Assembly: GCA_035271645.1 (NCBI GenBank)
Contig: DATERJ010000012.1
Span: 93,551-157,550 of the forward strand
Length of the DNA: 64,000 bases
Direction: 5' to 3'
Source: Candidatus Dojkabacteria bacterium
GTDB taxonomy: Bacteria; Patescibacteriota; Dojkabacteria; SC72
Shown: positions 12,101 through 57,163 of the stretch, one piece after another
Position numbering within the stretch: position 1 is the stretch's first letter
How the letters are laid out: the number at the start of each line of letters is the position of its first letter
Notes under the pieces: generated by a model
Seen by the model: only the letters and a program-made list of their open reading frames with translations
Told to the model about the DNA's origin: nothing
Databases searched by the model: none
Position numbers and translations under genes: made by a program

Positions 12101-12184
12101 TGCAGGAAGAGGGAATCGAACCCTCACTCTATTGCTAGAACGGGATTTTAAGTCCCGCGCGTCTGCCTATTCCGCCATTCCTGC
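12101..12184 (-). tRNA. tRNA-Leu (anticodon TAA), long variable arm, CCA not encoded
   Basis: Reverse complement GCAGGAATGGCGGAATAGGCAGACGCGCGGGACTTAAAATCCCGT…GAGGGTTCGATTCCCTCTTCCTGCA shows a cloverleaf with a CTTAAAA anticodon loop. Confidence 0.85.
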
Positions 12185-12227
12185 TAATAGGTGTGTGTAT
12201 TCTATCAAAAAAGACTTAGAAATATAA

Positions 12228-12299
12228 GGTGACGACGGGATTCGAACCCGTGGTAGTGGTTTTGCAGACCACGGCCTTAACCAGCTTGGCTACGTCACC
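12228..12299 (-). tRNA. tRNA-Cys (anticodon GCA)
   Basis: Reverse complement GGTGACGTAGCCAAGCTGGTTAAGGCCGTGGTCTGCAAAACCACTACCACGGGTTCGAATCCCGTCGTCACCT, with discriminator U. Confidence 0.85.
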
Positions 12300-13703
12300 C
12301 TAGAGATTAAGAATATCTTTGACAGTTAAGATTTCTAATATACTATCTGAGTCTTTGTTTTTAATAGAGCTTCCGCTAATTATAGCGATTTTGTCTAATA
12401 AATCCAACTCCCCACTACCATATACTTTTTCTACTGCAAGAATAACGTTGGCATCTCGATCATCAGATAGTTCTTTTATGTGGAATGTTTTTACTCCACG
12501 ATAGATAGCATTCTCTCGGACTGTTTTAATAGAGGAATTAAGAACATAGATTGGTACATTAGGTCTGTGTCTACTAACACTACCTACAATACCTTCTGAA
12601 TTAGATATGATTATGATTCCCTTAATTCCAATTTCCTCAGTTAGTTTACATACTGTTAAACCCAAACAATCTTCATGTTCACCTGCAGATGTTTTTCCTT
12701 CAATTGGTGAGAGCTTCATAATGGCTTCTGTTTTCATTGCAATTCTATTCATTGTTTGGACAGCTTCAACAGGATAATTCCCAGTAGAGGTTTCGGCAGA
12801 GAGCATTACACAGTCAGTTCCATCCATTACTGCGTTTGCTACATCTGACACCTCTGCTCTTGTTGGTCTCTTGTTCTCTCTCATAGACTCCAGCATCTGT
12901 GTTGCAACAATTACTGGTTTACCTGCTTGTCTACATTTGAAGATTAACTGCTTCTGAATAATGGGAACATCTTCTAAATCCATCTCTACTCCCATATCTC
13001 CCCTAGCAATCATTACAGCATCTGTCTCTTTAAGTATCTCATCAAAATTTGCAACACCTTGCTCATTCTCTATCTTCGCAATGACCTTAGTTCCATTCTC
13101 CCCTATCAACTTTCTAACTAAAAGAATATCCTCTTTACTTCTTACAAATGAAGCACTAATGAAGTCAAAGCCATGATTTGCGGCATATATGATATCCTTC
13201 TCATCTTTTTCTGTTAGCGCTGGAAAGTTAAGATTAACAGAAGGAATGTTGACAGTTTTGTTAGGCTTTAGAATACCACTCTGAATGACATCACACAGAA
13301 CCTCAGTACCTTTAATCTGTTTAACTATTAGTTGAATATTTCCATCATCAAGCATAATCTTTGTACCAATTACAACATCTTCATGAAGTGTTGGATATGT
13401 AACTTTAATGATATTTTCATTTGGATTATCTACAGAAGAAAGAACAAGTGTGTCTTTAACCTCAACCTCTTTGGCTAATCCCCTAACTCTAATCTTTGTT
13501 CCTTGTGTATCTAGAATGGTTGCAATTCTGGGAGATATATCCCTAAGTTGTTTTGATACTCTTTCCAATTCCGCTTCATCGGCAAAAGAAGCATTAATTC
13601 TAGCTAGCCTCATGCCATTCTCATACATCTTTTGGAGTATCTCATTATCCCATGTAGAGGGACCTATGGTGGCTACAATTTTTGTTTTTGCGACATTTTT
13701 CAT
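12300..13703 (-). CDS. pyk: Pyruvate kinase
   Basis: 467 aa. MKNVAKTKIVATIGPST… N-terminus and a conserved …MIARGDMGVE… motif. Confidence 0.85.
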   Translation of the reverse strand: MKNVAKTKIVATIGPSTWDNEILQKMYENGMRLARINASFADEAELERVSKQLRDISPRIATILDTQGTKIRVRGLAKEVEVKDTLVLSSVDNPNENIIKVTYPTLHEDVVIGTKIMLDDGNIQLIVKQIKGTEVLCDVIQSGILKPNKTVNIPSVNLNFPALTEKDEKDIIYAANHGFDFISASFVRSKEDILLVRKLIGENGTKVIAKIENEQGVANFDEILKETDAVMIARGDMGVEMDLEDVPIIQKQLIFKCRQAGKPVIVATQMLESMRENKRPTRAEVSDVANAVMDGTDCVMLSAETSTGNYPVEAVQTMNRIAMKTEAIMKLSPIEGKTSAGEHEDCLGLTVCKLTEEIGIKGIIIISNSEGIVGSVSRHRPNVPIYVLNSSIKTVRENAIYRGVKTFHIKELSDDRDANVILAVEKVYGSGELDLLDKIAIISGSSIKNKDSDSILEILTVKDILNL

Positions 13704-14481: not shown

Positions 14482-16248
14482 ATGAAAAAGAAGAAAAGAG
14501 ATATTGTTGCTGATAATACGATGAAGGATGCTCTTGAGGACTTGAATATTTCAGCTCCTTCAACTTCTCCTGAGAAGAAATTTAGTATTCGTGATGCCAT
14601 TTGGAATTATCCTAAAACCTTCCTCATGCTCTACAAGAAGTTAATTCCACTTAGCTATATTTTCCTTTTTGCAATCGTGGCAGGTATTTTAGTTTTGTTT
14701 TTAAATAGCTCTGTGGTTAGTAAGGTGGGTAAGGAAAGTGTTAGGAAAGACACTTTTGTCGAGGGTTTAGTTGGAACTGTTGATTCTCTAAATCCTTTGT
14801 TTGTGACAAATAACTTTTCGGATAGAGCTATCCAGAGTCTTGTTTTTCAGAAATTTGTTAATATTGATAATGAGGGAAATCCAATAGCAGGTGTGGCAAG
14901 TAGTTGGATTACCAGTGAAAATGGATTGGTTGTAGATTTTAAGATAGATGATGGATTGAAATGGAGTGATGGTAGCGATTTAACAGTAGATGATGTTGTT
15001 TTTACTTTCGAGACTGCCATTGCTCTTGCTAAACGTAGTGGTTTTGACTCTGTGGGAGAGGCTTTTCAGGATATAGGGGTGGAGAAAATTGATAATGAAA
15101 CAGTTAGGTTTCAATTGAAGGAGAGAAATCCTGTTTTTTTTAAAGCGATATCTATATATATAGTTCCAAAATCTAGACTTGAAGAGGTTGATGTTGGGAG
15201 GATGGCATTTGATCACTTTGCTAAATATCCGATGGGAAGTGGAAAATTTCATGTTGTAAAGATAGATGATTACGAGGTTGTGCTCGAGGACAATGAGTAT
15301 GATAAGTATGAGCCAAAGATTAAGAAGCTTGTATTAAAGATATATCCAACATTGGAAGCAGAAGAGATGGCTTTTAGAGTGGGAAATTTAGATGCCGTTG
15401 GTGGATGGGATAGGAAATCGTTTAGGTATACAGAGGAGTACAGGAATTATTCTAAATATTCTATGACTATTAGGGATAGAGAGAAACTAATTTTCTTTAA
15501 TCTTCGTAAGGATTCTTTGAAGAATGAGAATATGCGAAGGGCTCTAAACTATCTGCTTGATAAGGAGAGGTATCTGGAGGAGCTTGATGTTGGAGGTGAG
15601 ATTATGCATGGTCCATTCCCTAAGACTTCTTGGGCATATAGTGATGATTTTGAGAAGTATCAATACAATCCGCAGAAAGCTAAAGAGTTGTTAAAGGATT
15701 TGGGATATGTAATGAATACTGAGAGTGGTTATTATGAAACGGAGAATAAGGAGATTCTTAACTTCACTCTTAGCTATCTTGATACACCTACAAATAGTAG
15801 AATGGCAGAGTTGTTGATTGATTATTACAAAAAGGAGGGAGTATTTCTTAAGGGTAATGGGGTTGGGTATGATCAGATTACACAAGAAATTATTGCAACA
15901 AGAAATTTTGAGATGCTTCTTTATGAAGTGGAGACAGCAATAGACCCAGATCAGTATAATCTATGGCATTCACTTAAAGTTAATTATCCAGATTTGAATC
16001 TTTCAGGATATGATTATGAAAGAGTAGATATTTTGCTTGAGGAGGCTAGACAGACAATAAACAAGGATACAAGAAAACAGAAGTATACTTTGTTTCAGAG
16101 GTATCTAAATAATGACAGTCCTGTGATTTTTCTCTATAACCCATCTTTTGAATATATTGTTGATTCAGGACTTAAAGGAATCGACTTGGAATCTATAAAT
16201 AACTCGTATGATAGATTTCATAATATTGAAGAATGGTATTGGGAGTAA
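14482..16248 (+). CDS. ABC transporter substrate-binding protein, family 5 (peptide/nickel type), membrane-anchored
   Basis: 588 aa with an N-terminal TM helix. Its size and composition are typical of SBP_bac_5 (Opp/Dpp-like) proteins. Confidence 0.55.
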   Translation: MKKKKRDIVADNTMKDALEDLNISAPSTSPEKKFSIRDAIWNYPKTFLMLYKKLIPLSYIFLFAIVAGILVLFLNSSVVSKVGKESVRKDTFVEGLVGTVDSLNPLFVTNNFSDRAIQSLVFQKFVNIDNEGNPIAGVASSWITSENGLVVDFKIDDGLKWSDGSDLTVDDVVFTFETAIALAKRSGFDSVGEAFQDIGVEKIDNETVRFQLKERNPVFFKAISIYIVPKSRLEEVDVGRMAFDHFAKYPMGSGKFHVVKIDDYEVVLEDNEYDKYEPKIKKLVLKIYPTLEAEEMAFRVGNLDAVGGWDRKSFRYTEEYRNYSKYSMTIRDREKLIFFNLRKDSLKNENMRRALNYLLDKERYLEELDVGGEIMHGPFPKTSWAYSDDFEKYQYNPQKAKELLKDLGYVMNTESGYYETENKEILNFTLSYLDTPTNSRMAELLIDYYKKEGVFLKGNGVGYDQITQEIIATRNFEMLLYEVETAIDPDQYNLWHSLKVNYPDLNLSGYDYERVDILLEEARQTINKDTRKQKYTLFQRYLNNDSPVIFLYNPSFEYIVDSGLKGIDLESINNSYDRFHNIEEWYWE

Positions 16249-16331
16249 TGCCAAGGGGGGGAGTTGAACCCCCACCCTATTGCTAGGACTACGTTCTGAA
16301 CGTAGCGTGTCTGCCATTTCACCACCCTGGC
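16249..16331 (-). tRNA. tRNA-Leu (anticodon CAG), long variable arm
   Basis: Reverse complement GCCAGGGTGGTGAAATGGCAGACACGCTACGTTCAGAACGTAGTCCTAGCAATAGGGTGGGGGTTCAACTCCCCCCTTGGCA. It abuts the SBP stop codon. Confidence 0.85.
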
Positions 16332-16333
16332 AA

Positions 16334-18033: not shown

Positions 18034-19137
18034 ATGAGTAATAGAACAAGTATGAAGCTTGAAGACAGCTTAAATGAATATACCTTAACTGTTGTTAAGG
18101 ATCTTTTTCTCTGTACATTAGTAATGTCTTGTCTTAGTCTTCTACTCTGTTTTTATGGTATGGGAGAGCATTACTATCATCTGTCTTGCCTTTTCTTTTT
18201 ACTTGCAATCTTTCTGTTTGTTGTACTCAAAAGAAGAGATAAATGTGGGAAATTTTTGACAAAGATGATAGCTATATTCACTCCACTACTACTTTTGGGT
18301 CTTTTTTTAGTTGATGACTTTGTAATTTCGATAAAACCTTTAGTCTACCTCTATTTCACTTTCTTTTTGATAGAGATTATTAGGATGGCATTTTTGTTAG
18401 ATTCTTATGTAAGGTCTCTTTTAAAGAAACAGCAAGAATATCAGATTGTTGCGAGTTTTGAGAATCGTAACAGGCTTTTAGGTAAGGTTTCTAGGTCATT
18501 ACTTCACGATATCGCTACACCAGTAAGTATTCTTCTTGGTTGTTTAGAATTGTCAGAGGGTAGAAAGTTGAGCAAAATAGAGCGAGAGGATTTATACACC
18601 AATGTTAAAATAGCTGTAAATCAAATGGATTCCATATTGCATAGCACAGATTTTTTGATGAAGAGGTCTTCTTCTGTTGAAAGCTTTTCAATTGATGAGT
18701 GTATAGAGGAGATAGTTACTTTGCTAAGGGTGAGGACTGATGAGGCATGTATTCTAGTTGAAAGAAATTATCATACTAAAGAGAATATTACAGGAGATAG
18801 AAATGTGTTTTTAAGGGTGTTTCTTAATGTTTTTCTGAATGCTATAGAGGAATTGGAGAAAAGGAAGAGAGATGTTAGAAAAATATCAATAAAGACATCA
18901 GAGACACCTGAATTCTTTACAGTATACATCTTTGATAATGGGGACGGTTTCGATTCTAAGTTGCAGAGAGTATTTAACAATGAGGAGTTTATCTTTTCTG
19001 GAAAAGCTTTAGATTTAGGAAGTGGTTTGGTTTTTGTAAAGTATTGTGTGAGAGAGATTTTTAATGGAGATATTAAGATTGAGAATCATAAAGGTGAAAT
19101 GAGGAATTGTTTAAAATTAGTAATCCCTAGGGATTAG
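18034..19137 (+). CDS. Membrane sensor histidine kinase
   Basis: N-terminal TM helices, the H-box LLHDIATPVSIL, and an HATPase region FDNGDGF…LGSGLVF. Confidence 0.7.
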   Translation: MSNRTSMKLEDSLNEYTLTVVKDLFLCTLVMSCLSLLLCFYGMGEHYYHLSCLFFLLAIFLFVVLKRRDKCGKFLTKMIAIFTPLLLLGLFLVDDFVISIKPLVYLYFTFFLIEIIRMAFLLDSYVRSLLKKQQEYQIVASFENRNRLLGKVSRSLLHDIATPVSILLGCLELSEGRKLSKIEREDLYTNVKIAVNQMDSILHSTDFLMKRSSSVESFSIDECIEEIVTLLRVRTDEACILVERNYHTKENITGDRNVFLRVFLNVFLNAIEELEKRKRDVRKISIKTSETPEFFTVYIFDNGDGFDSKLQRVFNNEEFIFSGKALDLGSGLVFVKYCVREIFNGDIKIENHKGEMRNCLKLVIPRD

Positions 19138-19794
19138 TATTCGATACCCTATCCCCGATACAGTTTCAATAATTTCTTCTTCACAATGTCCTAACTTTTT
19201 TCTTAATCTACATATTAGTGTGTCAATACAGTGTAGACTTCTCTCTTCATAGTTAATATTTAATCTTTTTAAAATGTTTTCTCTTGTACATACATGTCCA
19301 TCTGATTCTAATAGATACTCTAGGCAGATTTTTTCCATTTTAGTCAGAGAGATTTCTTTGTTCTTTCTTCTAACTACTCCTTTTGTGATATCGATGAGAA
19401 CATTCTTTGTTTTGAAGATGTTGTTTTTACAATCAGGTACAAGGTTCTCAATTTGAATACCTAAGAGTTCGAAGCAGATAGGTTTTTTGTGGAAGATGTT
19501 AACTCCTTTTTTGTAAATATTTATTTCTTTTTCAATATCTTTGGGTTGTGAAATTGCGATAATGGATAGGTTTTTCTTTACCTCCTTTATTTTTTCAACA
19601 ACCTTTAACCCACATATATCTGGTAATCCAATATCTATGATTGCAAGGCAGATGTCATTTTCTATTCCTAACCTTATACCGTCGCTTCCGTTACATGTAC
19701 ACACTACTTTGTATCCTTGCTTTTTGAGGTACTTTTCTAAAACAAATATTAAACCTGGACTGTCCTCTACAATAAGTATTTCCTTCTTATACAT
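19117..19794 (-). CDS. OmpR-family response regulator
   Basis: REC domain (ILIVEDSP…IIDIGLPD) plus a C-terminal winged helix. Convergent with the histidine kinase, with a 21-nt 3' overlap. Confidence 0.75.
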   Translation of the reverse strand: MYKKEILIVEDSPGLIFVLEKYLKKQGYKVVCTCNGSDGIRLGIENDICLAIIDIGLPDICGLKVVEKIKEVKKNLSIIAISQPKDIEKEINIYKKGVNIFHKKPICFELLGIQIENLVPDCKNNIFKTKNVLIDITKGVVRRKNKEISLTKMEKICLEYLLESDGHVCTRENILKRLNINYEERSLHCIDTLICRLRKKLGHCEEEIIETVSGIGYRILIPRDY

Positions 19795-24257: not shown

Positions 24258-27200
24258 ATGAAGTTCAACAAAAAATCTTTTTGGAAGTCTTTGTACAAGA
24301 TTTCGACAGTCCTATTTTTAGTAGGATATAACTTTGCCCCTGTTGCTTTAGCAGCTGAAGAAATTTCTAACCTTGAACCTGATTCTAATCAATCGGTATC
24401 TGTTACAACCGAAGATACTAGTGAAGACATTCTTGATGAAGGTATATCTAACCCAGAGGGAATTGCTAAAGGAGAGAATGTAAAAGGGGAAGAAGCACAG
24501 AAATCAGTTTCATTGCAAGACACTGTATCTAAGAAAGAGAATGACAGTCAAACGAAAATAGAACTCAAAGCTTCTCCTATGGGAAATTCTGATTTTATTA
24601 ATATCACTTCTGTTACTGTTGATAACCAGTCACACACCACTGTTGTACGTCCGGGCACAGTCAGAGTAAGGGTAGATGCTACAAAGAATATCCCTTGGGG
24701 ATCTACTTATTATAAGTTGAGTAACAACAAGTATGCATGTGTGGTTAAAAGTGATACAGAAGGCACAACACATGAGTTTGACCTTGATATTGGAATGGAT
24801 GTTGGACTTGGTGAATATGATTTGAGTATAACAGCTTACGAGAGATCGGATTGTTCTACAGGTTGGTTCTGGAATCCTAGTTACAAATCAGATACAAAAG
24901 TTCTAGCGAAAGCTGTTAAAGTACAAGATGCTCCTAACCCGTTACTAGGTCAAACTTGTGGCTTAGATATCTCTTTGGTTTTAGATACATCAGGTAGTAT
25001 CGGTTCGACAAAGCTTCAACAGATGAAAGAGGCTTTCTATCTGTTGATTGATTCCTTAAAAGGTACTCCTACTAGGTTCTCTTTAGTAGAGTTTAATACT
25101 AAAGCATATGTGAGACAAGACTTTACTGATGATTTTGATTTAGTAAAAACTAAAATAGCACAATTCCAAAGTAGTGGTAGAACAAACTGGTACGATGCTC
25201 TTTTAAAGTCTGAAAGTACATTTGACCCAAGACTTGATAAAGCTGATTTAATAGTGTTCGCTTCTGACGGAAATCCAAACGAACCATCGAATGCATTAAA
25301 TAAAGCTATTGAACAAGCAAACTTAATCAAAGGTGATGATATAAGAATTTTAGGAATAGCAATTGGTATGAATGTGAACTTGAACAATATGAAAGCTATT
25401 ACTGGTCCAAATCTAAATACTGGTGATTTCCGAACATCAGATGTCATATCCGCTGATTTTGATACTCTTGCAGACCAGTTAGGTAAATTTGCAAGTGATA
25501 CTTGTGGTGGTTCAATTTCCATAAATAAGTATATTGGAAGTCTTGGAACAAAAGGTGGTGCAGGTTGGGAGTTTACAGTAACACCTTCTGACCCTCTTCT
25601 GAAATTGGTAACAGATGAGAATGGACAAGTTAACTCTGGAGAGTTATCTGTAGGAACATATTCTGTAATAGAAACCTCTTTAAGTGGTCATAATTTTGTT
25701 TCAGCTTCTTGTAAAAAGGGCAGTGGGATATTAGTTGGTCAACCTACTAAGAATGGTGTTAAGAATATTCCTGTTAATGCAGATGATATTATAACTTGTG
25801 ACTTTATTAACGACTTGTCATGTAAGGCTGGACAACATACATTAGAAGGACAGATAAAAGGAAATGGGTATACAACAGGGCAACTTTGTGCAGGTAGTGG
25901 TGCTTGTTGGGCAGAAGGTGATAATGTCCCCGCACGATTAACAATAACAGGATTAGAAGTTGGTACATCTTACTCTGCGATTGTATCTCACGATTTTGAA
26001 AATGCATACGGTAAAGTTGGTTATGTCAATTTTAACAATGTGCATAGTGGAAATAATACCGCGACAAACATCACTCTGTCAGAACCTACTATTGAAGGAA
26101 CAGGTCCGACAACAAAGAAGTACACGATTACATTTACTCCTACAAATAGTACAGTTCAGTTAGATTGGAATGCATTATTAAGTGATGAGGCTGGAGAATG
26201 GAGTGGTGGTTCATTACACTATCGATTGGAGGATGGGGTTTGTGGTGGTCTTGGTAAAAGAGAAATACCTATAAACCCAAATCAGATTCAAATAAAAGGT
26301 TCTATTAAACCTATCAAATCAAGTGAAAACAATATCAATCCAACACAGTGGTCATTTAACATCTCTGGTTTGGTAAATGTAAATAATGTTGCTAGTGGTG
26401 AAAAGGCTACAGGTTTACCTCTTGGTGATAAGAATGCAGATGCAACATATACAATAACTGAGACAGGATTAAGTGGATATGAATTAGTTTCTGTTAGTGA
26501 GCCTTGTGTTTTAGATGACGATGGAAAAGTCACTGTTACTTTAACTAAAGCTAATCCTGATGTTGAATGTACATTTGTTAATAAGTTAATGGTTGGAAAT
26601 ATCATTGTAAAGAAAGTAACAGAACCTTCTGGAAGTACAGAAGTATTTACATTTACTACAACTGGAACGGGGTATAATGGCTTTACTTTGACAGATGCAA
26701 CCTCAAATACTCAGACTTTAGTTCCTGGTACATATACAGTCTCCGAGTCTCTAACTGAGCTACAAAAAGATAGCTGGTATTTAAAGAGTTCTACTTGTGA
26801 TAGCTCTATCGTTGGGAAGTCACAGTCTCCTTCAAACTTGAATTTAGCAAGTGGTGAGACTGTGACTTGTACATTTACCAACACACAATATGGCTCTATC
26901 TCAGGTCATAAATGGAATGATGCAGACGGTTCTGATCTTACAACAGATGATAGGACAGGAGTTAAAAATTGGAGGATTTTCATAGATGAAAACGGAGATG
27001 AAAAATATGATGAAGGTGAGAAAGTTCTTCTAACTGATGAGAATGGCTTCTATAAATTCGAAGATCTCAAACCAGGTACATATGTAATTGTAGAAGATAT
27101 GAACTCTTTAGATGGGTGGTATGGCTTAAAGGAGGGTATCAGTCATACAGTATATGTAGGGCCAGGAAAGGATGTGGAAGATGTTGACTTTGTTAATGTT

Positions 27201-30200
27201 AAATATGGAAGCATTACAGTCTTAAAGAATGTTGATGGTAATGGAGATGGGGATTTAGATGATGAGGTTGATGTAAAAGGTTCAGACCAGTGGAATTGGA
27301 CAATTAATAGTGCTGATGCAGGTAAAACTGGAAGTACTCAGTCTAACTTAAAGACAGGTGAGTATATTATTAATGAAAAAGATGGTCCAGTAGGTTACTC
27401 TCTGGTTTCAGTAGAATGTACAGGTAGTGAAGGTATGAAAACAGATGCGGATGGTACAACTACAGTAAACCTAAAGTCAGGTGAAAATGTAACATGTACA
27501 TATACTAACGCAAGAGATACAGGCACATTGATTGTTGAGAAAATAGTTGTAGATGCTGATGGTGGAATTCTCCAAGCAAAAGACTTCTCATTTAAGGTTG
27601 ATATGATAAATGAGGATGAAAGTACTACAGAATATATTTCTCCTACTTACTTTACTCCAAATACAGAGAACCCTCTATCAGGTAAAAATACAATTACACT
27701 AGTTCCAACAGGTACCTACTCTATTACAGAAGTAGAGGCAAATCAGAGAGGATATACAACAACATATAGTGATAATTGTACTAATAATGTAAATATCCAA
27801 AAAGGGGACACAGTTACTTGTACTATTACTAATACGCCCAGTGCTCCAACATTGAAGATAGTTAAGGATGTTATTAATGATAATGGTGGTAATGCAACAA
27901 TATCAACCTTTGGTATTACATTAACAGATACACCATTAACATTTGGAGATGGAACACCTGTTAATGAGACTACTACTAGATATGAAGCTACTCCAACAGT
28001 TGTTGCTAATAAGACATATACCTTGTCAGAGTTAGATAAAACAAAAACAGGATATGAGCAAAAGAAACTTGAGTGTTTAGATACAGATACAAATACAAGA
28101 GTTGATAACAAAGGTGTATTTAGATTAAATCTTGGTCAAAACATAGAGTGTAAGATTGTAAATGATGATATCGTACCAGTATTAATTCTTGACAAGGAAG
28201 TCAATAACAAAGATCTTCCATGGTATTTAAGAAAATCAGCATCAGCTTGGACATTAACGGCTACTGGTCCTACTACATTAAGTGGTAAAGGTAGGAGTAA
28301 CTATGCAAATGATGTTCCGAGTGGAAAGAAATTCAAGGCTGGTACATATACTCTTTCAGAAACAAATATCCCAGGATTTAAATCAGTTAATGGTTGGGTT
28401 TGTAATGGTGTAGCTTTAGGAGAGGATAATAAGATAACTCTTGGGGTTGGAGATAGAGTTACTTGTAAGATTGTTAATGAAAGTGTTTACGGTAAGATAA
28501 TTGTCAAGAAGTTAGTTGAACCTAAAACAGATCCTACTTTGTTTACTTTTACAGGTGATGTGGCTGGAATAATTGGTCATAATGGAGAAATTTCAAAATA
28601 TGTAATTCCTGGAGAGTACTCTGTAACAGAAAAATCTAAAGATGGTTGGAATCTAAGAGATTTAACATGTACAGATCCTACAAATAACAGCTCTCAAGAT
28701 TCTACCAATAAGTATAAAGCAAACATCAATGTAGGAGATAATGAGACAGTCCGATGTACATTTACTAATGAAAAGTTAGGAATAATTTCTGGCTTCAAAT
28801 ATGAAGATAAAAATGGAAACGGAAAATGGGATGTTTTACCACTATTCTCAGAATTACCATTAAGAGGTTGGAGAATCTTCATTGATTTGAACAACGATGG
28901 TGTTCTAAATGTAGGAGAGCCATCTACCACAACAGATGTGTTTGGATCTTACACATTCACTAATCTACCAGTAGGAGGCACATATGTTGTTCGTGAAGTA
29001 CAGCAAGATGGTTGGACTCAAACAACTGCAGATCCTGCTCCTATCACAATTGCAGCAGGAGATGTGAGATTGTTGGTCAACTTTGGTAACTTCAAAGATG
29101 CTACAATCAATGTAACTAAAGATGTTGTTGGAATTGACGGTAAAGCAAATGTTGCAGACACACATGAATTTACTGCACTTTTAAACGATGAAACAGTTGG
29201 TAAGATAATTGCAGAAGGAACCACAGCTACATACAAAGTAGCAAATGGTGCACATACAATAACAGAAGCAGAAGATGAGGACTACACATCTCTGGGTTGT
29301 TTCATTGGTGATGAAGAGTTTACTAATTACTCGGTAAAGAGTGGTCAAACATACAATGTAGTATGTAAGAATGCACAACTACCAGCAACACTAATCGTTA
29401 GAAAGAATGTAGTCAACAGCGAAGGAAAGGATGAGGGTGTGTTCTCAGATGATCAGTTTGATATTGTCTTGGGTGAAGAAACACAACAGATTGCGGATAC
29501 TGCAAATGGTAAACAACCAGCAATATTTGAAGGATTACAGCCAGGTGTTCATACATTCACAGAAACACCAAAAGAAGGATATATCTTCGAAGGATGTACA
29601 GATGATGGTGAGGTTACATTAGGAAGTAATCAAACTCTTGAAGTTGTATGTACCAACAAAGTAATTGATCCAATCCTTAAGATTGAAAAGAGTAATGATG
29701 CAGTAAGTTCATTGTTAGCAGGTGATATGGTTACATACACAATTACAGTAACAGCACCTATTGATGATATAGAGGAAGGTACATATGTTCTAAATAATGT
29801 AGTAGTCTCAGACATTGCTCCAGCAGGATTCAAATATATCCTTGGCTCATGGACAGTAGAGAAAAACAGTGTTGATATTACAGATGAAGTTCCAGAACCA
29901 ACATACAATGATACAAATGTAGCACAGTGGATGATTGGAGATATGAAAGAAGGGGATGTTGTAGTACTAACATACAGAACTAGAATCTCTCTCTTACAAG
30001 ATCCTGGTAACTATCCAGACATTGCATGGGTAGCAGGTACATCACTAATAGATGGTGCAGTACTAGGTGCTTCTACAGTAGACCCACTAACACCATTTGT
30101 AGGGACAGATGTAACAGTCATAGAGCCTGATATTGTAGAAGAAGGAGAAGTATTAGGTGCTTCCATCACCCTGCCAGATACAGGTGCAAGCACATATCTA

Positions 30201-31193
30201 ACATTAGGTGCATTAATTATGATGATTCTAGGTGTAATTGCCCTACTCTTTAAACCATTCAAGAAGCTAAACTATGCTCTTCTTACTGGTCTAATGGCAG
30301 TATCATTTGTAACCCTACTTACTCCTAACAGAGTATTAGCAGAAGACAGTGATATTAAGGTAAGAATTATGCAACCAGCAACTCCAACAAACAAGAGTAG
30401 CTTTAATGTCGGATTTGTAGCATTAGACCTTAAGAACAATCCAATTACAGTAGAATGTTACAAAGATGCAGTCCTGTTTGAAACACTTCCAAATGTAAAT
30501 ACAGGTAATTGTCCAGCAAAAGTAGATGCAAGTGGTACATATACTTTCTATGTCATTGCAAAATCTACTTCAGGTGAGCAAAAATCAGCAGATGTAACAG
30601 TAGTGGTAGATTTAGAAAAACCATCACCCGTAATTGATTACTCAAAAGCAGGTAATGTATTAAAGTTCAAAACAGCAAATGATGGTAAAACAAAGAAGGT
30701 TGAAATCCATAGGTCTACAACACCAAAATATACTGCAAATGAAAGTACAAGAATTCATACCATGGATGTATTACCAAATACAGAATACTCATGGACAGAT
30801 ACAACAGCAGAAACAGGAAAAACATACTACTATGCTCTTAGAACAGTAGATGCAGTTGGAAACGTATCTACAATAGTATCAGACCCTGAGGTTAAGATTG
30901 TACCACCTACTACAACAGGTACAGGAACAACAGCTACTGTTACTACTCCAACAGAAGGTGAAGTAGCTGGTCAAACAGATACCAAGAAAGAAGGAGAAGT
31001 AGCAGGTGAAGCAGATGACCTTGTAGAGGGAGAAGAAAAAGATGTAGAGAAGAAAGAAGAAACAAAAGAGGATACAAAGGCTGATTTGAAAGAAACAGGA
31101 AAGAAGATTTTAAACAAATGGTACATCTGGGTTGTAGCAATCCTAGTACTTGGAGGAGTAGCATTCTATGTCAAAAAACAAAAGAGTAATTAA
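24258..31193 (+). CDS. Giant cell-surface adhesin/pilus-tip-like protein with an internal sortase signal and a membrane-anchored C-terminal module
   Basis: Signal peptide, then a vWA domain (MIDAS DTSGS at ~aa 240). About 10 Ig-like isopeptide (CnaB/SpaA) repeats carry E-box motifs (YTITETGLSGYE, YSVIETSLSGH, YTLSETNIPGF…), with SdrD-B-like Ca-binding inserts (DENGDEKYDEGE, DKNGNGKWD). LPDTG lies at aa 1972 (nt 30171-30185), followed by TM plus KPFKK. A further ~335 aa carries a signal-like segment, an FN3-like domain, a Thr-rich linker, an acidic tract and a TM plus KKQKSN. Confidence 0.8.
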   Translation: MKFNKKSFWKSLYKISTVLFLVGYNFAPVALAAEEISNLEPDSNQSVSVTTEDTSEDILDEGISNPEGIAKGENVKGEEAQKSVSLQDTVSKKENDSQTKIELKASPMGNSDFINITSVTVDNQSHTTVVRPGTVRVRVDATKNIPWGSTYYKLSNNKYACVVKSDTEGTTHEFDLDIGMDVGLGEYDLSITAYERSDCSTGWFWNPSYKSDTKVLAKAVKVQDAPNPLLGQTCGLDISLVLDTSGSIGSTKLQQMKEAFYLLIDSLKGTPTRFSLVEFNTKAYVRQDFTDDFDLVKTKIAQFQSSGRTNWYDALLKSESTFDPRLDKADLIVFASDGNPNEPSNALNKAIEQANLIKGDDIRILGIAIGMNVNLNNMKAITGPNLNTGDFRTSDVISADFDTLADQLGKFASDTCGGSISINKYIGSLGTKGGAGWEFTVTPSDPLLKLVTDENGQVNSGELSVGTYSVIETSLSGHNFVSASCKKGSGILVGQPTKNGVKNIPVNADDIITCDFINDLSCKAGQHTLEGQIKGNGYTTGQLCAGSGACWAEGDNVPARLTITGLEVGTSYSAIVSHDFENAYGKVGYVNFNNVHSGNNTATNITLSEPTIEGTGPTTKKYTITFTPTNSTVQLDWNALLSDEAGEWSGGSLHYRLEDGVCGGLGKREIPINPNQIQIKGSIKPIKSSENNINPTQWSFNISGLVNVNNVASGEKATGLPLGDKNADATYTITETGLSGYELVSVSEPCVLDDDGKVTVTLTKANPDVECTFVNKLMVGNIIVKKVTEPSGSTEVFTFTTTGTGYNGFTLTDATSNTQTLVPGTYTVSESLTELQKDSWYLKSSTCDSSIVGKSQSPSNLNLASGETVTCTFTNTQYGSISGHKWNDADGSDLTTDDRTGVKNWRIFIDENGDEKYDEGEKVLLTDENGFYKFEDLKPGTYVIVEDMNSLDGWYGLKEGISHTVYVGPGKDVEDVDFVNVKYGSITVLKNVDGNGDGDLDDEVDVKGSDQWNWTINSADAGKTGSTQSNLKTGEYIINEKDGPVGYSLVSVECTGSEGMKTDADGTTTVNLKSGENVTCTYTNARDTGTLIVEKIVVDADGGILQAKDFSFKVDMINEDESTTEYISPTYFTPNTENPLSGKNTITLVPTGTYSITEVEANQRGYTTTYSDNCTNNVNIQKGDTVTCTITNTPSAPTLKIVKDVINDNGGNATISTFGITLTDTPLTFGDGTPVNETTTRYEATPTVVANKTYTLSELDKTKTGYEQKKLECLDTDTNTRVDNKGVFRLNLGQNIECKIVNDDIVPVLILDKEVNNKDLPWYLRKSASAWTLTATGPTTLSGKGRSNYANDVPSGKKFKAGTYTLSETNIPGFKSVNGWVCNGVALGEDNKITLGVGDRVTCKIVNESVYGKIIVKKLVEPKTDPTLFTFTGDVAGIIGHNGEISKYVIPGEYSVTEKSKDGWNLRDLTCTDPTNNSSQDSTNKYKANINVGDNETVRCTFTNEKLGIISGFKYEDKNGNGKWDVLPLFSELPLRGWRIFIDLNNDGVLNVGEPSTTTDVFGSYTFTNLPVGGTYVVREVQQDGWTQTTADPAPITIAAGDVRLLVNFGNFKDATINVTKDVVGIDGKANVADTHEFTALLNDETVGKIIAEGTTATYKVANGAHTITEAEDEDYTSLGCFIGDEEFTNYSVKSGQTYNVVCKNAQLPATLIVRKNVVNSEGKDEGVFSDDQFDIVLGEETQQIADTANGKQPAIFEGLQPGVHTFTETPKEGYIFEGCTDDGEVTLGSNQTLEVVCTNKVIDPILKIEKSNDAVSSLLAGDMVTYTITVTAPIDDIEEGTYVLNNVVVSDIAPAGFKYILGSWTVEKNSVDITDEVPEPTYNDTNVAQWMIGDMKEGDVVVLTYRTRISLLQDPGNYPDIAWVAGTSLIDGAVLGASTVDPLTPFVGTDVTVIEPDIVEEGEVLGASITLPDTGASTYLTLGALIMMILGVIALLFKPFKKLNYALLTGLMAVSFVTLLTPNRVLAEDSDIKVRIMQPATPTNKSSFNVGFVALDLKNNPITVECYKDAVLFETLPNVNTGNCPAKVDASGTYTFYVIAKSTSGEQKSADVTVVVDLEKPSPVIDYSKAGNVLKFKTANDGKTKKVEIHRSTTPKYTANESTRIHTMDVLPNTEYSWTDTTAETGKTYYYALRTVDAVGNVSTIVSDPEVKIVPPTTTGTGTTATVTTPTEGEVAGQTDTKKEGEVAGEADDLVEGEEKDVEKKEETKEDTKADLKETGKKILNKWYIWVVAILVLGGVAFYVKKQKSN

Positions 31194-31830
31194 CAAAAAG
31201 GTTCTAGTAGGAGTAATATTACTCCTACTAGGCCTCACTGCCCTTCTCTTGACATACTGGCCAGTAATTAGGGCTAAGATATCTCAATGTAGGTTCTCAG
31301 AACCATCTACAACCAATGTAGTTATATCCGAAAATCAAGATATTACCAAAGAGATTACCCCAGATACAGAAGAAGTAATCCTAGATCCAAAGTTCGGTTT
31401 GTATATTCCTAAGATTAAATCTAATGCATCAGTTGTAGCTGATGTAAATGCATATGACAAGGGGGAGTATATCAAGGCATTAGAGACGGGTATTGCTCAT
31501 GCAAAAGGTACAGTAACACCTAACAAAGAAGGTAATGTATTTCTTTTTGCACACTCTGCTGTTAATTTCTATGAAAGAAACAAATATGATGTATACTTCT
31601 ACCTTCTTCATGAATTGAAAAAAGATGATGAAATATTTGTAAGTTATGATGGCATTATCTACAAATACAGAGTTCAAGAGGTAAAAATTGTAAACAGAGA
31701 TGAAGTTAAATACTTAAGTAAATACTCTGATGAAGATACCCTAACCTTAATGACCTGCTATCCTGCAGGTACAGACTGGAAGAGAACCATAGTGATTGCA
31801 CACAGAGACAATACGACTCCTTTTCTTTAG
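31168..31830 (+). CDS. Sortase (transpeptidase), membrane-anchored
   Basis: N-terminal TM helix, catalytic TLMTCYP (TLxTC), upstream His (LFAHSAV) and Arg (VIAHRD). It overlaps the adhesin 3' end by 26 nt. Confidence 0.8.
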   Translation: MSKNKRVINKKVLVGVILLLLGLTALLLTYWPVIRAKISQCRFSEPSTTNVVISENQDITKEITPDTEEVILDPKFGLYIPKIKSNASVVADVNAYDKGEYIKALETGIAHAKGTVTPNKEGNVFLFAHSAVNFYERNKYDVYFYLLHELKKDDEIFVSYDGIIYKYRVQEVKIVNRDEVKYLSKYSDEDTLTLMTCYPAGTDWKRTIVIAHRDNTTPFL

Positions 31831-32293: not shown

Positions 32294-32719
32294 CTACTGA
32301 TTTGAAACTACAAAGGAAACAGTAGCTTCAGAACTCGCAGAAAATGTTCCTCTTTCTGTAAACTCCTCTATCACCTGTATACAGTTTGTATCTGGCTCAG
32401 GTGATAGTACAGAGAGATTAACAGTTACTTGTTCAGGAAGGCTTTCGTTAATGAACACCTCATGTTTTATTTCATGACAAGGACTTGGTTTGGTTCCAGT
32501 AATTGTATACTCCCAGGTGTTCTTTTCTTTGTATTTTGCATCAAACTGATATCCATCCTGTTCTATACTAACACTCTTCTGCTCTATTTTAACGATATTA
32601 TTATCTACAGCATCATCAGCCTTGTTTTTATCTAAAACAAAAACCTTAACCAATATTCCTCCAATGATTGTTAGAATTATGATTAACATACCTACTCCAA
32701 ATACATTGTTTCTGTTCAT
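32294..32719 (-). CDS. Hypothetical secreted protein
   Basis: Signal anchor plus a small domain containing two Cys. Confidence 0.35.
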   Translation of the reverse strand: MNRNNVFGVGMLIIILTIIGGILVKVFVLDKNKADDAVDNNIVKIEQKSVSIEQDGYQFDAKYKEKNTWEYTITGTKPSPCHEIKHEVFINESLPEQVTVNLSVLSPEPDTNCIQVIEEFTERGTFSASSEATVSFVVSNQ

Positions 32720-33351
32720 TTCTTTCCTTTCTTATTATTTGAAATATGACTCTTCCTTTTCTCAACAGTAAATATTGCTAATACTGCGAGACTACCTAGC
32801 ATCATTACAATGCCAGCACTGACTATTACAAAATCAAAATACACTTTGTTTAAACTTGCCAAACTTCCAATCAATATACTAAGCCCTGCTGTAAAGAGGC
32901 TGATAATTGTTTCGTAAAATCCATATTGTAGCCCCTCTATACCACTATCTACATTCATAGCAAAAAGCTTTCTCCAGTTTGTAACACTTAGTGCAACTCC
33001 AAAACCAAATACAAATTGTAGAAGATAGTAGTGCCAAGGTTCTGTTATATGAGGATAGAAGGTATATGGAAGACCCATTAGTATCGTACCTGCTGCAAGA
33101 AGAAGTATCTCATCTTTATCACTCTCAATCTTATCAGTAAGATAGCCCATTGGAATTTGTAATATGGCTCTTGTGAAGAAGTATATTGATGTCCCTATTC
33201 CAACAAATTTTACTGCATCAACACCTAGCTTGTCAGAAAGGTAGATACCAGAGAGCGCGGAAATGATGAGAAAAGGTCCCCATGAAAGCATATCTGAGAG
33301 AGTTAAGAGCATGACTACTTTGTTCGGTCTTTTTCTTTCATGTTTCTCCAT
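32716..33351 (-). CDS. Hypothetical 6-TM membrane protein (half-MFS-like)
   Basis: 211 aa, about 6 predicted TM helices and no diagnostic motif. Confidence 0.35.
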   Translation of the reverse strand: MEKHERKRPNKVVMLLTLSDMLSWGPFLIISALSGIYLSDKLGVDAVKFVGIGTSIYFFTRAILQIPMGYLTDKIESDKDEILLLAAGTILMGLPYTFYPHITEPWHYYLLQFVFGFGVALSVTNWRKLFAMNVDSGIEGLQYGFYETIISLFTAGLSILIGSLASLNKVYFDFVIVSAGIVMMLGSLAVLAIFTVEKRKSHISNNKKGKK

Positions 33352-52106: not shown

Positions 52107-52184
52107 TGGGGTGGAAGATGGGACTTGAACCCACAACCTCTGGTGCCACAAACCAGCGCTCTAACCAGTTGAGCTACATCCACC
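52107..52184 (-). tRNA. tRNA-His (anticodon GTG), G-1 and CCA encoded
   Basis: Reverse complement G-GTGGATGTAGCTCAACTGGTTAGAGCGCTGGTTTGTGGCACCAGAGGTTGTGGGTTCAAGTCCCATCTTCCACC-C-CCA. The extra 5' G pairs with C73, as is typical of tRNA-His. Confidence 0.85.
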
Positions 52185-56908: not shown

Positions 56909-57163
56909 ATTTGTGTAGCTTTAATTTATCTAAAAGGGAATTGTTGATTACCTCTTTGTTGAATTGTAGGTAATCTTTAGGTCAACAATATGACCTGAGA
57001 GTATCCGCTGATTATCCGACTGCTCTCTCCTCGTAGTAGTTCCTAGCTACCCATACGCTATTTATGTTAAATATCCCTTGGGTATATATTACAGGATTAA
57101 AGTTTTAGGTCAAGTTTGCTATATATCCTTTGTCATATTAATATCAATATTGTATATTTAAAT

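What the first reader, a model, noticed from the sequence alone, without database searches (positions are those of the whole stretch)
24258..31830. 2311-aa vWA plus isopeptide-domain adhesin whose LPDTG sorting signal is internal, followed in-frame by a second signal-like segment, FN3 domain and TM anchor; a sortase overlaps the gene
The protein is built like a Gram-positive pilus tip adhesin: signal peptide, vWA with MIDAS DTSGS, about 10 CnaB/SpaA-type Ig folds with E-box motifs, and SdrD-B Ca-binding inserts. The canonical LPDTG plus TM plus KPFKK signal sits at aa 1972-2005, not at the C-terminus. The ORF continues for ~300 aa with a signal-peptide-like segment (MAVSFVTLLTPNRVLA|EDS), an FN3-like domain, a Thr-rich linker, an acidic tract and a terminal TM plus KKQKSN. 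Either sortase cleavage releases a sizeable membrane-anchored C-terminal remnant with its own ectodomain, which is an unusual arrangement, or two genes have fused or lost a stop. The sortase start overlaps the 3' end by 26 nt, which fits a dedicated sortase-substrate pair.
Basis: seen in the sequence. Interest (0 to 1): 0.6.

Follow-up and report, generated by a model that had tools for sequence, protein, structure and literature searches.

The report
Adhesin fused to its sortase-cassette partner
In this candidate-phyla-radiation (CPR) bacterium, a giant cell-surface adhesin is joined in one reading frame to the next gene of its operon, so its wall-anchoring signal lies inside the protein; the same layout recurs in dozens of related species, so it is a real, apparently undescribed variant of a known surface-display system.

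Summary
ORF 24258-31193 encodes 2311 aa. LPDTG is at aa 1972-1976, followed by TM1, KPFKK, a second hydrophobic segment ending VLA|EDS, a folded ectodomain, a linker and a last TM. A sortase gene overlaps the 3' end by 26 nt.

It is not an assembly error or a lost stop. The same in-frame layout occurs in 46 of 66 species-level CPR/Patescibacteria genomes and in about 145 of 147 cluster representatives at 50% identity. In 16 other species the two halves are separate genes whose stop and start overlap. There the adhesin ends in LPxTG-TM-basic tail and the downstream gene starts with an ordinary signal peptide. Fused and split forms interleave on a rough tree. A sortase gene abuts the module in 61 of 66 loci, and no fourth gene is conserved.

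Best reading: a polyprotein form of a three-part cassette (adhesin, tandem Ig/FN3 membrane protein, dedicated sortase). Sortase would cut at LPDT|G and signal peptidase I after A2028. These cleavages are inferred, not shown, and the module's role is unknown.

The closest precedent is the LPXTG / two-TM / second signal-peptidase-site device of streptococcal IgA1/Zmp proteases. I rate it a new variant of a known kind, interest about 0.6.

The parts
24258..31193 (+). Fused adhesin-module ORF, 2311 aa plus stop
24258..24353 (+). N-terminal signal peptide (aa 1-32, ...PVALA|AEE)
   Evidence: Read from the translation; inferred from the n/h/c-region pattern
24966..25415 (+). vWA domain (aa 237-386), with MIDAS DTSGS at nt 24984-24998
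   Evidence: Pfam VWA E=2.7e-13; motif position
25515..30137 (+). Stalk of isopeptide-type Ig folds: SpaA, SpaA_2, SpaA_4, SdrD_B, and a last CLIPPER/DUF11 domain around aa 1790-1960
   Evidence: CLIPPER is a CnaA-like isopeptide domain (PMC12617251)
30144..30158 (+). GEVLG motif, 4 aa upstream of the sorting motif
   Evidence: present in 120 of 151 family members at this position
30171..30185 (+). LPDTG sortase motif (aa 1972-1976)
   Evidence: LPxTG is conserved in about 150 of 151 fused homologues
30186..30251 (+). TM1 (aa 1977-1998), the stop-transfer helix of the sorting signal
   Evidence: AF2 helix 1977-1997; family median is 24 aa from the motif to the first K/R
30252..30266 (+). KPFKK cytoplasmic loop. 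It serves as both the basic tail of the sorting signal and the n-region of the internal signal peptide.
   Evidence: family loop median 6 aa, net charge +4
30267..30341 (+). TM2 / internal signal peptide (aa 2004-2028). The predicted signal peptidase I site VLA|E lies between nt 30341 and 30342.
   Evidence: AF2 helix 2004-2021 followed by a low-confidence stretch. It is homologous to the N-terminal signal peptide of stand-alone modules. Small-x-small sites are retained across the family.
30354..30608 (+). Module domain 1: Ig-like beta-sandwich with the conserved Cys2067-Cys2085 pair
   Evidence: AF2 pLDDT above 90; both Cys are 99% conserved
30633..30881 (+). Module domain 2: FN3, with YYYAxRxxDxxGNxS and the near-invariant Lys2130
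30888..31109 (+). Disordered Thr-rich and acidic linker with two GEVAG motifs (nt 30957-30971 and 30993-31007)
31119..31190 (+). TM3 plus the cytoplasmic tail KKQKSN
   Evidence: AF2 helix at model residues 261-283
31152..31158 (+). Shine-Dalgarno GGAGGAG for the sortase, inside the module coding region
31168..31830 (+). Sortase, 220 aa, N-terminal TM, catalytic residues H129, C197 and R206. Overlaps the adhesin-module ORF by 26 nt.

Best explanation
The gene is the fused (polyprotein) form of a self-contained three-part surface-display cassette that is widespread in CPR/Patescibacteria. The three parts are (1) a giant vWA plus isopeptide-domain adhesin ending in an LPxTG sorting signal, (2) a roughly 300-aa protein made of a signal peptide, an Ig-like domain, an FN3 domain, a disordered linker and a C-terminal TM, and (3) a dedicated sortase whose start overlaps gene 2.

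In other lineages genes 1 and 2 overlap by 8-14 nt in different frames, so a one-base frame change joins them. In the fused protein, the basic tail of the sorting signal and the n-region of the module's signal peptide merge into a short cytoplasmic loop (KPFKK).

The inferred pathway has five steps.
- Sec exports the adhesin.
- TM1 stops transfer.
- TM2, the former signal peptide, restarts export of the module, and TM3 anchors it.
- Sortase cuts LPDT|G and transfers the adhesin to the envelope, most likely to peptidoglycan.
- Signal peptidase I cuts after VLA2028, releasing a type I membrane protein and leaving a hairpin peptide of about 52 aa.

The end products would equal those of the split cassette, made in a fixed 1:1 ratio.

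Shown: the anatomy, the conservation, the split/fused homology and the sortase linkage. Inferred: both cleavages, the acceptor, and the module's role, which I take to be a stoichiometric membrane-proximal partner of the adhesin and sortase.
For: Fused junctions are found from 88% down to 29% identity.

A profile search of 1.84 billion representatives gives 634 hits at E<=1e-30. Nearly all of the top 150 have GEVLGAS-LPxTG-TM1-basic loop-TM2-AxA-module, with LPxTG 330-400 aa from the C-terminus.

Among 66 GTDB species loci, 46 are fused and 16 split. Every split adhesin ends in LPxTG-TM-basic tail at the module's start codon (junction DNA).

Split forms fall in at least 5 clusters interleaved with fused forms.

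A sortase lies within 100 nt of the module's end in 61 of 66 loci, and there is no other conserved neighbour.

The junction is under purifying selection: 17 synonymous against 7 nonsynonymous codon changes over 87 codons versus L009.

AF2 predicts helix-loop-helix and then a confident tandem beta-sandwich.

The sortase catalytic H/C/R residues are conserved in 70 cassette sortases.

MurB is encoded in the window, so a peptidoglycan acceptor is plausible.

Precedent: streptococcal Zmp/IgA1 proteases have LPXTG, two TM segments and a second presumed signal-peptidase site (PMC3518915).
Against: No cleavage has been observed; there are no proteomic or biochemical data for any family member.

Signal peptidase use of an internal signal peptide is inferred only from homology to the split form and from retention of small-x-small sites. 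My site-finder was crude.

The module's fold is a generic tandem Ig/FN3 and gives no functional clue.

Repeated fusion and fission could mean the fusion is merely neutral, with no stoichiometric meaning.

The conserved GEV[LA]G motif in both halves is not explained by this model.
Confidence: 0.7

Rival explanations
1. Artefact or pseudogene: a missed stop, a frameshift or a mis-assembly joined two genes in this window only.
For: Some database gene calls in close relatives start at MMILG, giving 318-324 aa stand-alone proteins. One contig splits the gene inside TM2.
Against: Those calls are caused by N-run scaffold gaps, or lie on a 1.9x-coverage contig whose adhesin is shattered into five ORFs. 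The junction DNA is identical in an independent assembly. The fusion recurs in 46 species-level genomes and about 145 cluster representatives. Codon changes at the junction are mostly synonymous.
Confidence: 0.02
2. The fusion is real, but TM2 is an uncleaved membrane helix. After sortase cleavage, a three-TM remnant (G1976-TM1-loop-TM2-ectodomain-TM3) persists as such.
For: Internal signal peptides are not always cleaved. The loop is very short, which could hinder signal peptidase access. AF2 confidence for the hairpin is only moderate.
Against: TM2 is homologous to a normal N-terminal cleavable signal peptide in the split forms. Fused forms keep its c-region: a helix breaker (P or N) and a small-x-small site 2-8 residues before the conserved VRIExP start of the module. 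Frequent switching between fused and split forms suggests equivalent mature products.
Confidence: 0.15
3. The module is the nucleophile acceptor. The class-C-like sortase transfers the adhesin from LPDT to an amine of the module (candidate: the near-invariant Lys2130 in P-x-x-P-x-x-Y-x-K), not to peptidoglycan. This would give a covalent adhesin-module conjugate held by the module's TM.
For: The nearest solved homologues of the sortase are pilus-polymerising class C enzymes. Lys2130 is 94% conserved at an FN3 A-strand position that is usually hydrophobic (the last point is from general FN3 knowledge). Fusion enforces 1:1 stoichiometry, and the hairpin places LPDTG next to the module. No pilin or other acceptor gene is in the cassette.
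Against: The module is FN3/Ig-like, not a CnaA/CnaB pilin, and its resemblance to the pilin motif is weak. A direct fusion lacking the hairpin would give the same topology without a sortase, yet none of about 150 homologues has lost the hairpin. That argues the sortase step does something a fusion cannot, such as wall linkage. The N-terminal residue after the signal-peptidase site is not conserved. The sortase scores far below the class C cut-off.
Confidence: 0.12
4. LPDTG is not used in the fused form, and the protein stays as one polytopic membrane-anchored adhesin.
For: One family member (P0082) lacks LPxTG yet keeps the hairpin and module.
Against: LPxTG is conserved in about 150 of 151 fused proteins with canonical spacing to TM1. 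A sortase gene with an intact H/C/R triad abuts 61 of 66 cassettes.
Confidence: 0.04

Closest known systems
[quoted passage not shown]
   Same: A non-C-terminal LPXTG is followed by two hydrophobic membrane-spanning segments and a second presumed signal-peptidase site, then a large exported domain. One precursor therefore yields two surface-associated pieces.
   Different: In those proteins the LPXTG is near the N-terminus and the large passenger follows it. Here about 1970 aa precede the motif and a small tandem Ig/FN3 protein with its own C-terminal TM follows. There is no sequence relationship. Here the downstream part is a separate gene in related lineages, and a dedicated sortase is part of the cassette.
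Canonical LPXTG cell-wall sorting signal of Gram-positive surface proteins
   Same: N-terminal signal peptide, LPxTG, a hydrophobic helix of about 21 aa and a basic stretch (KPFKK). There are weak hits to Pfam Gram_pos_anchor and TIGR01167.
   Different: The signal is not C-terminal: 308 aa follow the basic stretch. The organism belongs to the Patescibacteria, not the Firmicutes or Actinobacteria.
Sortase-assembled pilus tip adhesins (SpaC, RrgA, GBS104 type) with a class C sortase (own knowledge)
   Same: An N-terminal vWA domain with a MIDAS motif, a stalk of isopeptide-type Ig folds, an adjacent sortase whose nearest solved homologues are class C, and operon coupling.
   Different: The cassette has no major or basal pilin gene with a pilin motif and LPXTG. 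The sortase is far below the class C cut-off (66 bits against 160). The partner protein is FN3-like and TM-anchored.
Proteobacterial dedicated sortase system (class GN sortase TIGR03784 plus VWA target TIGR03788) (own knowledge of the TIGRFAM definitions)
   Same: One sortase is genetically dedicated to one vWA-containing target, together with an accessory envelope protein.
   Different: Both models score far below cut-off (34 bits against 158; 20 against 552). The accessory protein is different, and that system has no fusion.
SafA-SrtA pairing in Actinobacteria (PMC9282373)
   Same: A membrane protein is genetically coupled to a sortase gene and acts at the sortase / signal-peptidase interface.
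   Different: SafA is a small proteolipid with an FPW motif encoded after srtA. The module here is a 280-aa ectodomain protein encoded before the sortase, and its interaction with the sortase is untested.
Pam pilus accessory proteins PamR, PamC and PamD of CPR bacteria (bioRxiv 10.64898/2026.03.03.709456)
   Same: CPR-specific envelope proteins with a signal peptide, Ig/FnIII-type ectodomains and a C-terminal TM, proposed to tether or assemble surface filaments at the membrane.
   Different: That is a donor-strand-exchange system without sortase or LPXTG. No homology was tested or found here.

Membership tests
LPXTG sortase substrate (cell-wall sorting signal) | N-terminal Sec signal peptide | tested here: met
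   aa 1-32 show the n/h/c pattern, ending ALA|AEE (translation). No dedicated predictor was available.
LPXTG sortase substrate (cell-wall sorting signal) | LPXTG motif followed by a hydrophobic helix and a positively charged stretch | tested here: met
   LPDTG at aa 1972, helix 1977-1997, KPFKK at 1999-2003. Gram_pos_anchor scores 18.1 bits, just under its cut-off of 20. TIGR01167 scores 18.4 against 15.9.
LPXTG sortase substrate (cell-wall sorting signal) | The sorting signal is at the extreme C-terminus | tested here: not met
   308 aa follow KPFKK. This holds in 46 of 66 species loci.
LPXTG sortase substrate (cell-wall sorting signal) | Cleavage between T and G, with linkage to peptidoglycan | not testable with these tools
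   Needs biochemistry. MurB in the window shows only that peptidoglycan synthesis is encoded.
Sortase (PF04203 / TIGR01076) | Sortase fold with a His-Cys-Arg triad and TLxTC | tested here: met
   PF04203 at E=3.6e-24. TIGR01076 scores 60.2 against 39.35. H129, C197 (TLMTC) and R206 are conserved in 70 cassette sortases.
Class C (pilus) sortase | Score above the NCBIfam class C cut-off | tested here: not met
   66.3 bits against a cut-off of 160. All class models (C, D, E, F, GN) fall below their cut-offs. The nearest PDB entries are class C, but only at E about 5e-8.
Sortase-assembled pilus locus | A major or basal pilin gene with a pilin-motif Lys and its own LPXTG | tested here: not met
   Only the adhesin/module and the sortase are conserved across 66 loci. 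The module has no LPXTG, and its fold is FN3/Ig.
Streptococcal Zmp-type internal LPXTG anchor | LPXTG, then two TM segments, then a second signal-peptidase site, then an exported domain | tested here: met
   architecture as described in PMC3518915. This is an architectural analogy only.
Streptococcal Zmp-type internal LPXTG anchor | Homology to the Zmp family (HExxH metalloprotease passenger, N-terminal placement of the motif) | tested here: not met
   No protease domain is present. The motif lies at aa 1972 of 2311.
Proteobacterial dedicated sortase system | Sortase matches TIGR03784 and the target matches TIGR03788 | tested here: not met
   34.2 bits against 158.25, and 20.3 against 551.65.
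CPR adhesin-module-sortase cassette (defined here) | The module (VRIExPxSPT start, Cys pair, FN3 YYYAxRAxDxxGNxS, linker, C-terminal TM) lies directly after an LPxTG protein and directly before an overlapping sortase | tested here: met
   The window matches all of these elements. 61 of 66 loci show the sortase adjacency.

The most novel reading that the evidence does not exclude
The tandem Ig/FN3 module may be the covalent acceptor rather than a bystander. The cassette's class-C-like sortase would move the 2000-aa adhesin from LPDT onto an amine of the module encoded on the same polypeptide (candidate Lys2130). Signal peptidase would excise the TM hairpin. The result would be a self-contained 'cut-and-paste' polyprotein that builds a branched, membrane-anchored fibre without peptidoglycan. 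The shared GEV[LA]G motif would then act as a common docking or release site in both pieces.
Probability: 0.12. Interest if true: 0.85.

Novelty: new variant of a known kind. Interest (0 to 1): 0.6.

Why it matters
Sortases are encoded in more than half of CPR genomes and are near-universal in Microgenomates (PMC6744442). Yet nothing in the searchable literature describes what they do there.

This finding defines a compact, CPR-wide unit that can be recognised from sequence alone: giant adhesin, Ig/FN3 membrane protein, sortase. That unit is probably a major host-attachment device of these episymbionts.

It shows that the rule 'the sorting signal is C-terminal' fails for a family with hundreds of sequence clusters. 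Annotation pipelines and LPXTG predictors will therefore miss or mis-split these genes.

It also gives a natural fused/split pair of states, which makes the processing model directly testable. Finally, it flags an uncharacterised protein family (no Pfam or NCBIfam model) and a conserved GEV[LA]G motif as candidates for new sortase-pathway biology.

Tried and rejected
Assembly error or lost stop. Rejected.

Stand-alone 318-324-aa gene calls in Dojkabacteria as evidence of separate genes. Rejected, because they start just after N-run gaps.

Module as a pilin-like CnaA/CnaB fold. Foldseek against the PDB gives only generic tandem FN3/Ig matches such as cytokine receptors, CbhA Fn3 and SiiE.

Module family models. 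There is no Pfam or NCBIfam hit for the module at E<0.01.

The terminal 'LKETG' before TM3 as a second sorting motif. Rejected, because it is not conserved in homologues (IKETA, VKETT, ELTPS).

The module's new N-terminus as sortase nucleophile. Disfavoured, because the +1 residue and the spacing vary.

A fourth conserved cassette gene such as a protease, signal peptidase or oxidoreductase. None was found: the next most common neighbour occurs in 11 of 66 loci and is a DNA-alkylation repair protein.

First genome scan. The 19-sequence alignment was too diverse for a DNA pattern, so I repeated the scan with 6 sequences.

Literature searches. Searches for an internal LPXTG, for the EVLGA/VLGARR motifs, and for CPR sortase cassettes found nothing relevant.

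Cleavage-site finder. My regex finder was crude and picks the site nearest the anchor. I use it only as a presence check.
Full report
OBSERVATION

The ORF list and translation confirm a 2311-aa ORF at 24258..31193 (+) and a 220-aa ORF at 31168..31830 (+) that overlaps it by 26 nt. Motif positions are MIDAS DTSGS at aa 243, GEVLG at 1963, LPDTG at 1972-1976 (nt 30171), KPFKK at 1999-2003, VLA|EDS at 2026-2031, GEVAG at 2234 and 2246, and KKQKSN at 2306-2311.

Pfam and NCBIfam find VWA (237-386), SpaA, SpaA_2, SpaA_4 and SdrD_B, a DUF11/CLIPPER repeat, and a borderline LPXTG-anchor hit at 1970-1999. The downstream ORF is a sortase (PF04203, E=3.6e-24). CLIPPER/DUF11 is a CnaA-like isopeptide domain (PMC12617251).

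The DNA between 30060 and 30420 has no stop or frame change. A GGAGGAG Shine-Dalgarno sequence sits 9 nt upstream of the sortase ATG, inside the coding region for the last TM.

The surroundings are ordinary chromosome: BipA, desulfoferrodoxin, MFS transporter, Na/Pi cotransporter and MurB.

IS IT AN ARTEFACT?

A homologue search with aa 1937-2311 returned proteins with the same in-frame junction at 69%, 65%, 46%, 40% and 29% identity. They come from Candidatus Dojkabacteria and other Patescibacteria. The search also returned stand-alone proteins of about 300-330 aa with their own N-terminal signal peptide.

Three apparent stand-alone proteins of 318-324 aa start at 'MMILG', inside TM1. In L001 and L081 this is caused by runs of N just upstream, and the reading frame continues through LPxTG into the module. 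A fourth split (P0010/P0005) lies on a 1.9x-coverage contig whose adhesin is broken into five ORFs.

Across the 87-codon junction, window versus L009 shows 17 synonymous and 7 nonsynonymous codon changes, mostly at third positions.

The fusion is therefore real and under purifying selection.

WHAT THE DOWNSTREAM PART IS

In a Woesebacteria genome (L002) a 1252-aa SpaA/SdrD_B/CLIPPER protein ends ...ELPATG-TM-KLREKRTKHAKN*. The module gene (P0013) starts at an ATG 14 nt before that stop, in another frame.

In L005-L007 a 2104-aa adhesin ends ...ELPATG-TM-GKYTRRLHA*. The module starts in the overlapping ATGCTTAA, and a 220-aa sortase overlaps the module's end by 38 nt.

So the window's 'second signal-like segment' is the module's signal peptide. 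A one-base frame change at the stop/start overlap is enough to fuse the two genes.

HOW COMMON IS IT?

A profile search of 1.84 billion cluster representatives found 6440 hits at E<=1e-3 and 634 at E<=1e-30. The profile covered the last CLIPPER domain, the sorting signal, the hairpin and the module.

Among the 147 new sequences listed, about 145 have LPxTG (mostly LPATG), then about 24 aa to the first K/R, a loop of about 6 aa with net charge +4, a second hydrophobic segment ending in a small-x-small site, and the module. LPxTG lies 330-400 aa from the C-terminus of proteins of 500-3090 aa. That ranking favours fused proteins, because they match more of the profile.

A module-only word-indexed search instead returned mostly stand-alone proteins of about 300 aa, so both forms are abundant.

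The least biased sample is a scan of one genome per GTDB species with a module-only pattern. It gave 66 loci, all CPR or plausibly mislabelled CPR MAGs: Dojkabacteria/WS6, Shapiro-, Roizman-, Gottesman-, Chisholm-, Collier-, Levyi-, Moranii-, Parcu- and Paceibacterota. Of these:
- 46 are fused;
- 16 are split, each with an upstream ORF ending in EVLGAS-LPxTG-TM-basic tail at the module start;
- 4 are indeterminate.

On a rough neighbour-joining tree of module sequences the split forms fall in at least five clusters interleaved with fused forms. This implies repeated interconversion.

THE CASSETTE

In 61 of 66 loci a sortase begins within 100 nt of the module ORF's end, typically overlapping by about 28-50 nt. 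The exceptions are contig ends or a sortase elsewhere in the locus.

All-against-all clustering of neighbouring ORFs finds only the adhesin/module (63 loci) and the sortase (60 loci) as conserved. The next family occurs in 11 loci and is a DNA-alkylation repair protein. The unit is therefore self-contained.

The sortase has conserved H129, C197 (TLMTC) and R206. It passes the general sortase model but none of the class-specific cut-offs. Its nearest solved homologues are class C pilus sortases at E about 5e-8.

THE MODULE

AlphaFold2 with 13 homologues gives pLDDT above 90 for two beta-sandwich domains (aa 2033-2117 and 2126-2208). These are followed by a disordered linker (2211-2284) and a terminal helix.

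Foldseek against the PDB returns only generic tandem FN3/Ig pairs. No Pfam or NCBIfam family matches, and source names are 'hypothetical' or 'fibronectin type III domain-containing'.

Over 158 sequences the conserved features are:
- a Cys pair in domain 1 (C2067 and C2085, 99%);
- P2040 and P2122;
- the FN3 signature YYYAxRAxDxxGNxS;
- Lys2130 (94%);
- a Gly of the GEVxG motif (91%), inside the region predicted to be disordered.

For aa 1937-2311, AF2 predicts helix 1977-1997, a break at KPFKK, helix 2004-2021, and a low-confidence stretch over the predicted cleavage site.

MECHANISM (INFERRED)

The split form must yield two products: an adhesin with a classical sorting signal, and a type I membrane protein matured by signal peptidase.

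Three observations bear on the fused form. The fused and split forms interconvert often. The fused forms keep LPxTG, the basic loop, and the h- and c-regions and small-x-small site of the signal peptide. The sortase stays attached to the cassette. The simplest model is therefore that the fused precursor is inserted as TM1 (out-to-in), a cytoplasmic loop, TM2 (in-to-out), the ectodomain and TM3. It would then be cut twice, by sortase at LPDT|G and by signal peptidase I after A2028.

This is the same device proposed for streptococcal IgA1/Zmp proteases: LPXTG, two TM segments and a second signal-peptidase site (PMC3518915). Here the large passenger is on the other side of the motif.

The acceptor is probably peptidoglycan, since MurB is in the window, but this is not shown.

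The module's role is open. Fusion, translational coupling and strict linkage argue for a stoichiometric partner of the adhesin and/or sortase. SafA (PMC9282373) and the membrane-anchored Ig/FnIII proteins of CPR Pam pili are functional analogies only.

RIVALS
- Artefact: about 2%.
- Uncleaved TM2, leaving a three-TM remnant: about 15%.
- The module as covalent acceptor through Lys2130: about 12%. This is attractive because of the class-C-like sortase and the geometry. It is weakened by the FN3 fold and by the fact that no lineage has replaced the hairpin with a direct fusion.
- LPDTG unused: about 4%.

UNEXPLAINED

GEV[LA]G occurs three times in the whole window, all in this gene. One copy lies 4 aa before LPDTG and two lie in the module linker.

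Family-wide it is present just upstream of LPxTG in 120 of 151 proteins and in the linker of 72 of 144. By comparison, there are 23 copies in 190,984 aa of adhesin body. No literature was found on it.

A release-protease site is one possibility, as with the ZmpI/PPEP-1 sites directly upstream of the C. difficile PPKTG motif (PMC4591827). However, no protease is conserved in the cassette.

NOVELTY AND SCORE

The components (sortase, LPXTG substrate, isopeptide stalk, FN3) are known, and so is the hairpin plus second signal-peptidase-site device. What I could not find described is a CPR-wide three-gene cassette with an uncharacterised module family, predominantly fused, so that the sorting signal is internal.

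I rate it a new variant of a known kind with interest 0.6. It is solid and widespread, testable, and relevant to how episymbiotic CPR bacteria attach. The processing steps and the module's function are still inferences.

Noticed in passing
window 30144-30158, 30957-30971, 30993-31007: A GEV[LA]G motif is shared by the adhesin (4 aa before LPDTG) and the module's disordered linker. It is about 70-fold enriched there family-wide relative to the adhesin bodies. Its function is unknown.
   Followed up: partly
window 56936-57070 (-): A glmS ribozyme (Rfam RF00234, 45.6 bits against a gathering score of 37) lies just upstream of the 594-aa ORF 55124-56908 (-).
   Followed up: no
window 32294-32719 (-) and 32716-33351 (-): An MFS transporter region appears as two ORFs of 141 and 211 aa that overlap by 4 nt. 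Only the 211-aa ORF hits MFS_1. The same two-ORF layout is present in relative L001 (138 and 206 aa).
   Followed up: no
window 12101-12300, 16248-16332, 52107-52183 (-): Four tRNA genes: Leu-taa, Cys-gca, Leu-cag and His-gtg.
   Followed up: no
window 18034-19137 (+) and 19117-19794 (-): A convergent, overlapping pair about 4.5 kb upstream of the adhesin: a histidine-kinase-like ORF (weak HATPase_c hit) and an OmpR-type response regulator. The response regulator is also present near the cassette in L082.
   Followed up: no
L001:9800 region; L081:8663-8878; L082:3682-9798: The database gene calls that make the module look like a separate gene in the Dojkabacteria clade are artefacts. They come from N-run scaffold gaps (L001, L081) or from a 1.9x-coverage contig with many frameshifts (L082).
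   Followed up: yes
L082:10608-12335: A second, 575-aa gene with a faint Gram_pos_anchor hit lies directly after the sortase in one Dojkabacteria relative. It is absent from the window.
   Followed up: no
L002:2277-3640: In the Woesebacteria locus a gene with a weak Peptidase_M10 hit abuts the sortase, which there lies upstream of the adhesin. It is not conserved in other loci.
   Followed up: partly
P0082 (760 aa); P0069 (1576 aa): Two atypical family members. P0082 keeps the hairpin and module but has lost LPxTG. P0069 has LAQTG and extra domains after the module.
   Followed up: no
window aa 2186 (nt 30813-30815): The window has Thr where 89% of the family has Cys. A second disulfide, in the FN3 domain, appears to have been lost in the Dojkabacteria clade.
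   Followed up: no
L019, L021, L024, L025, L027, L031, L039-L041 and others: Many MAGs titled 'uncultured Gammaproteobacteria', 'Pseudomonadales' or 'Bdellovibrionales' carry this CPR-type cassette. Their taxonomic labels are probably wrong.
   Followed up: no
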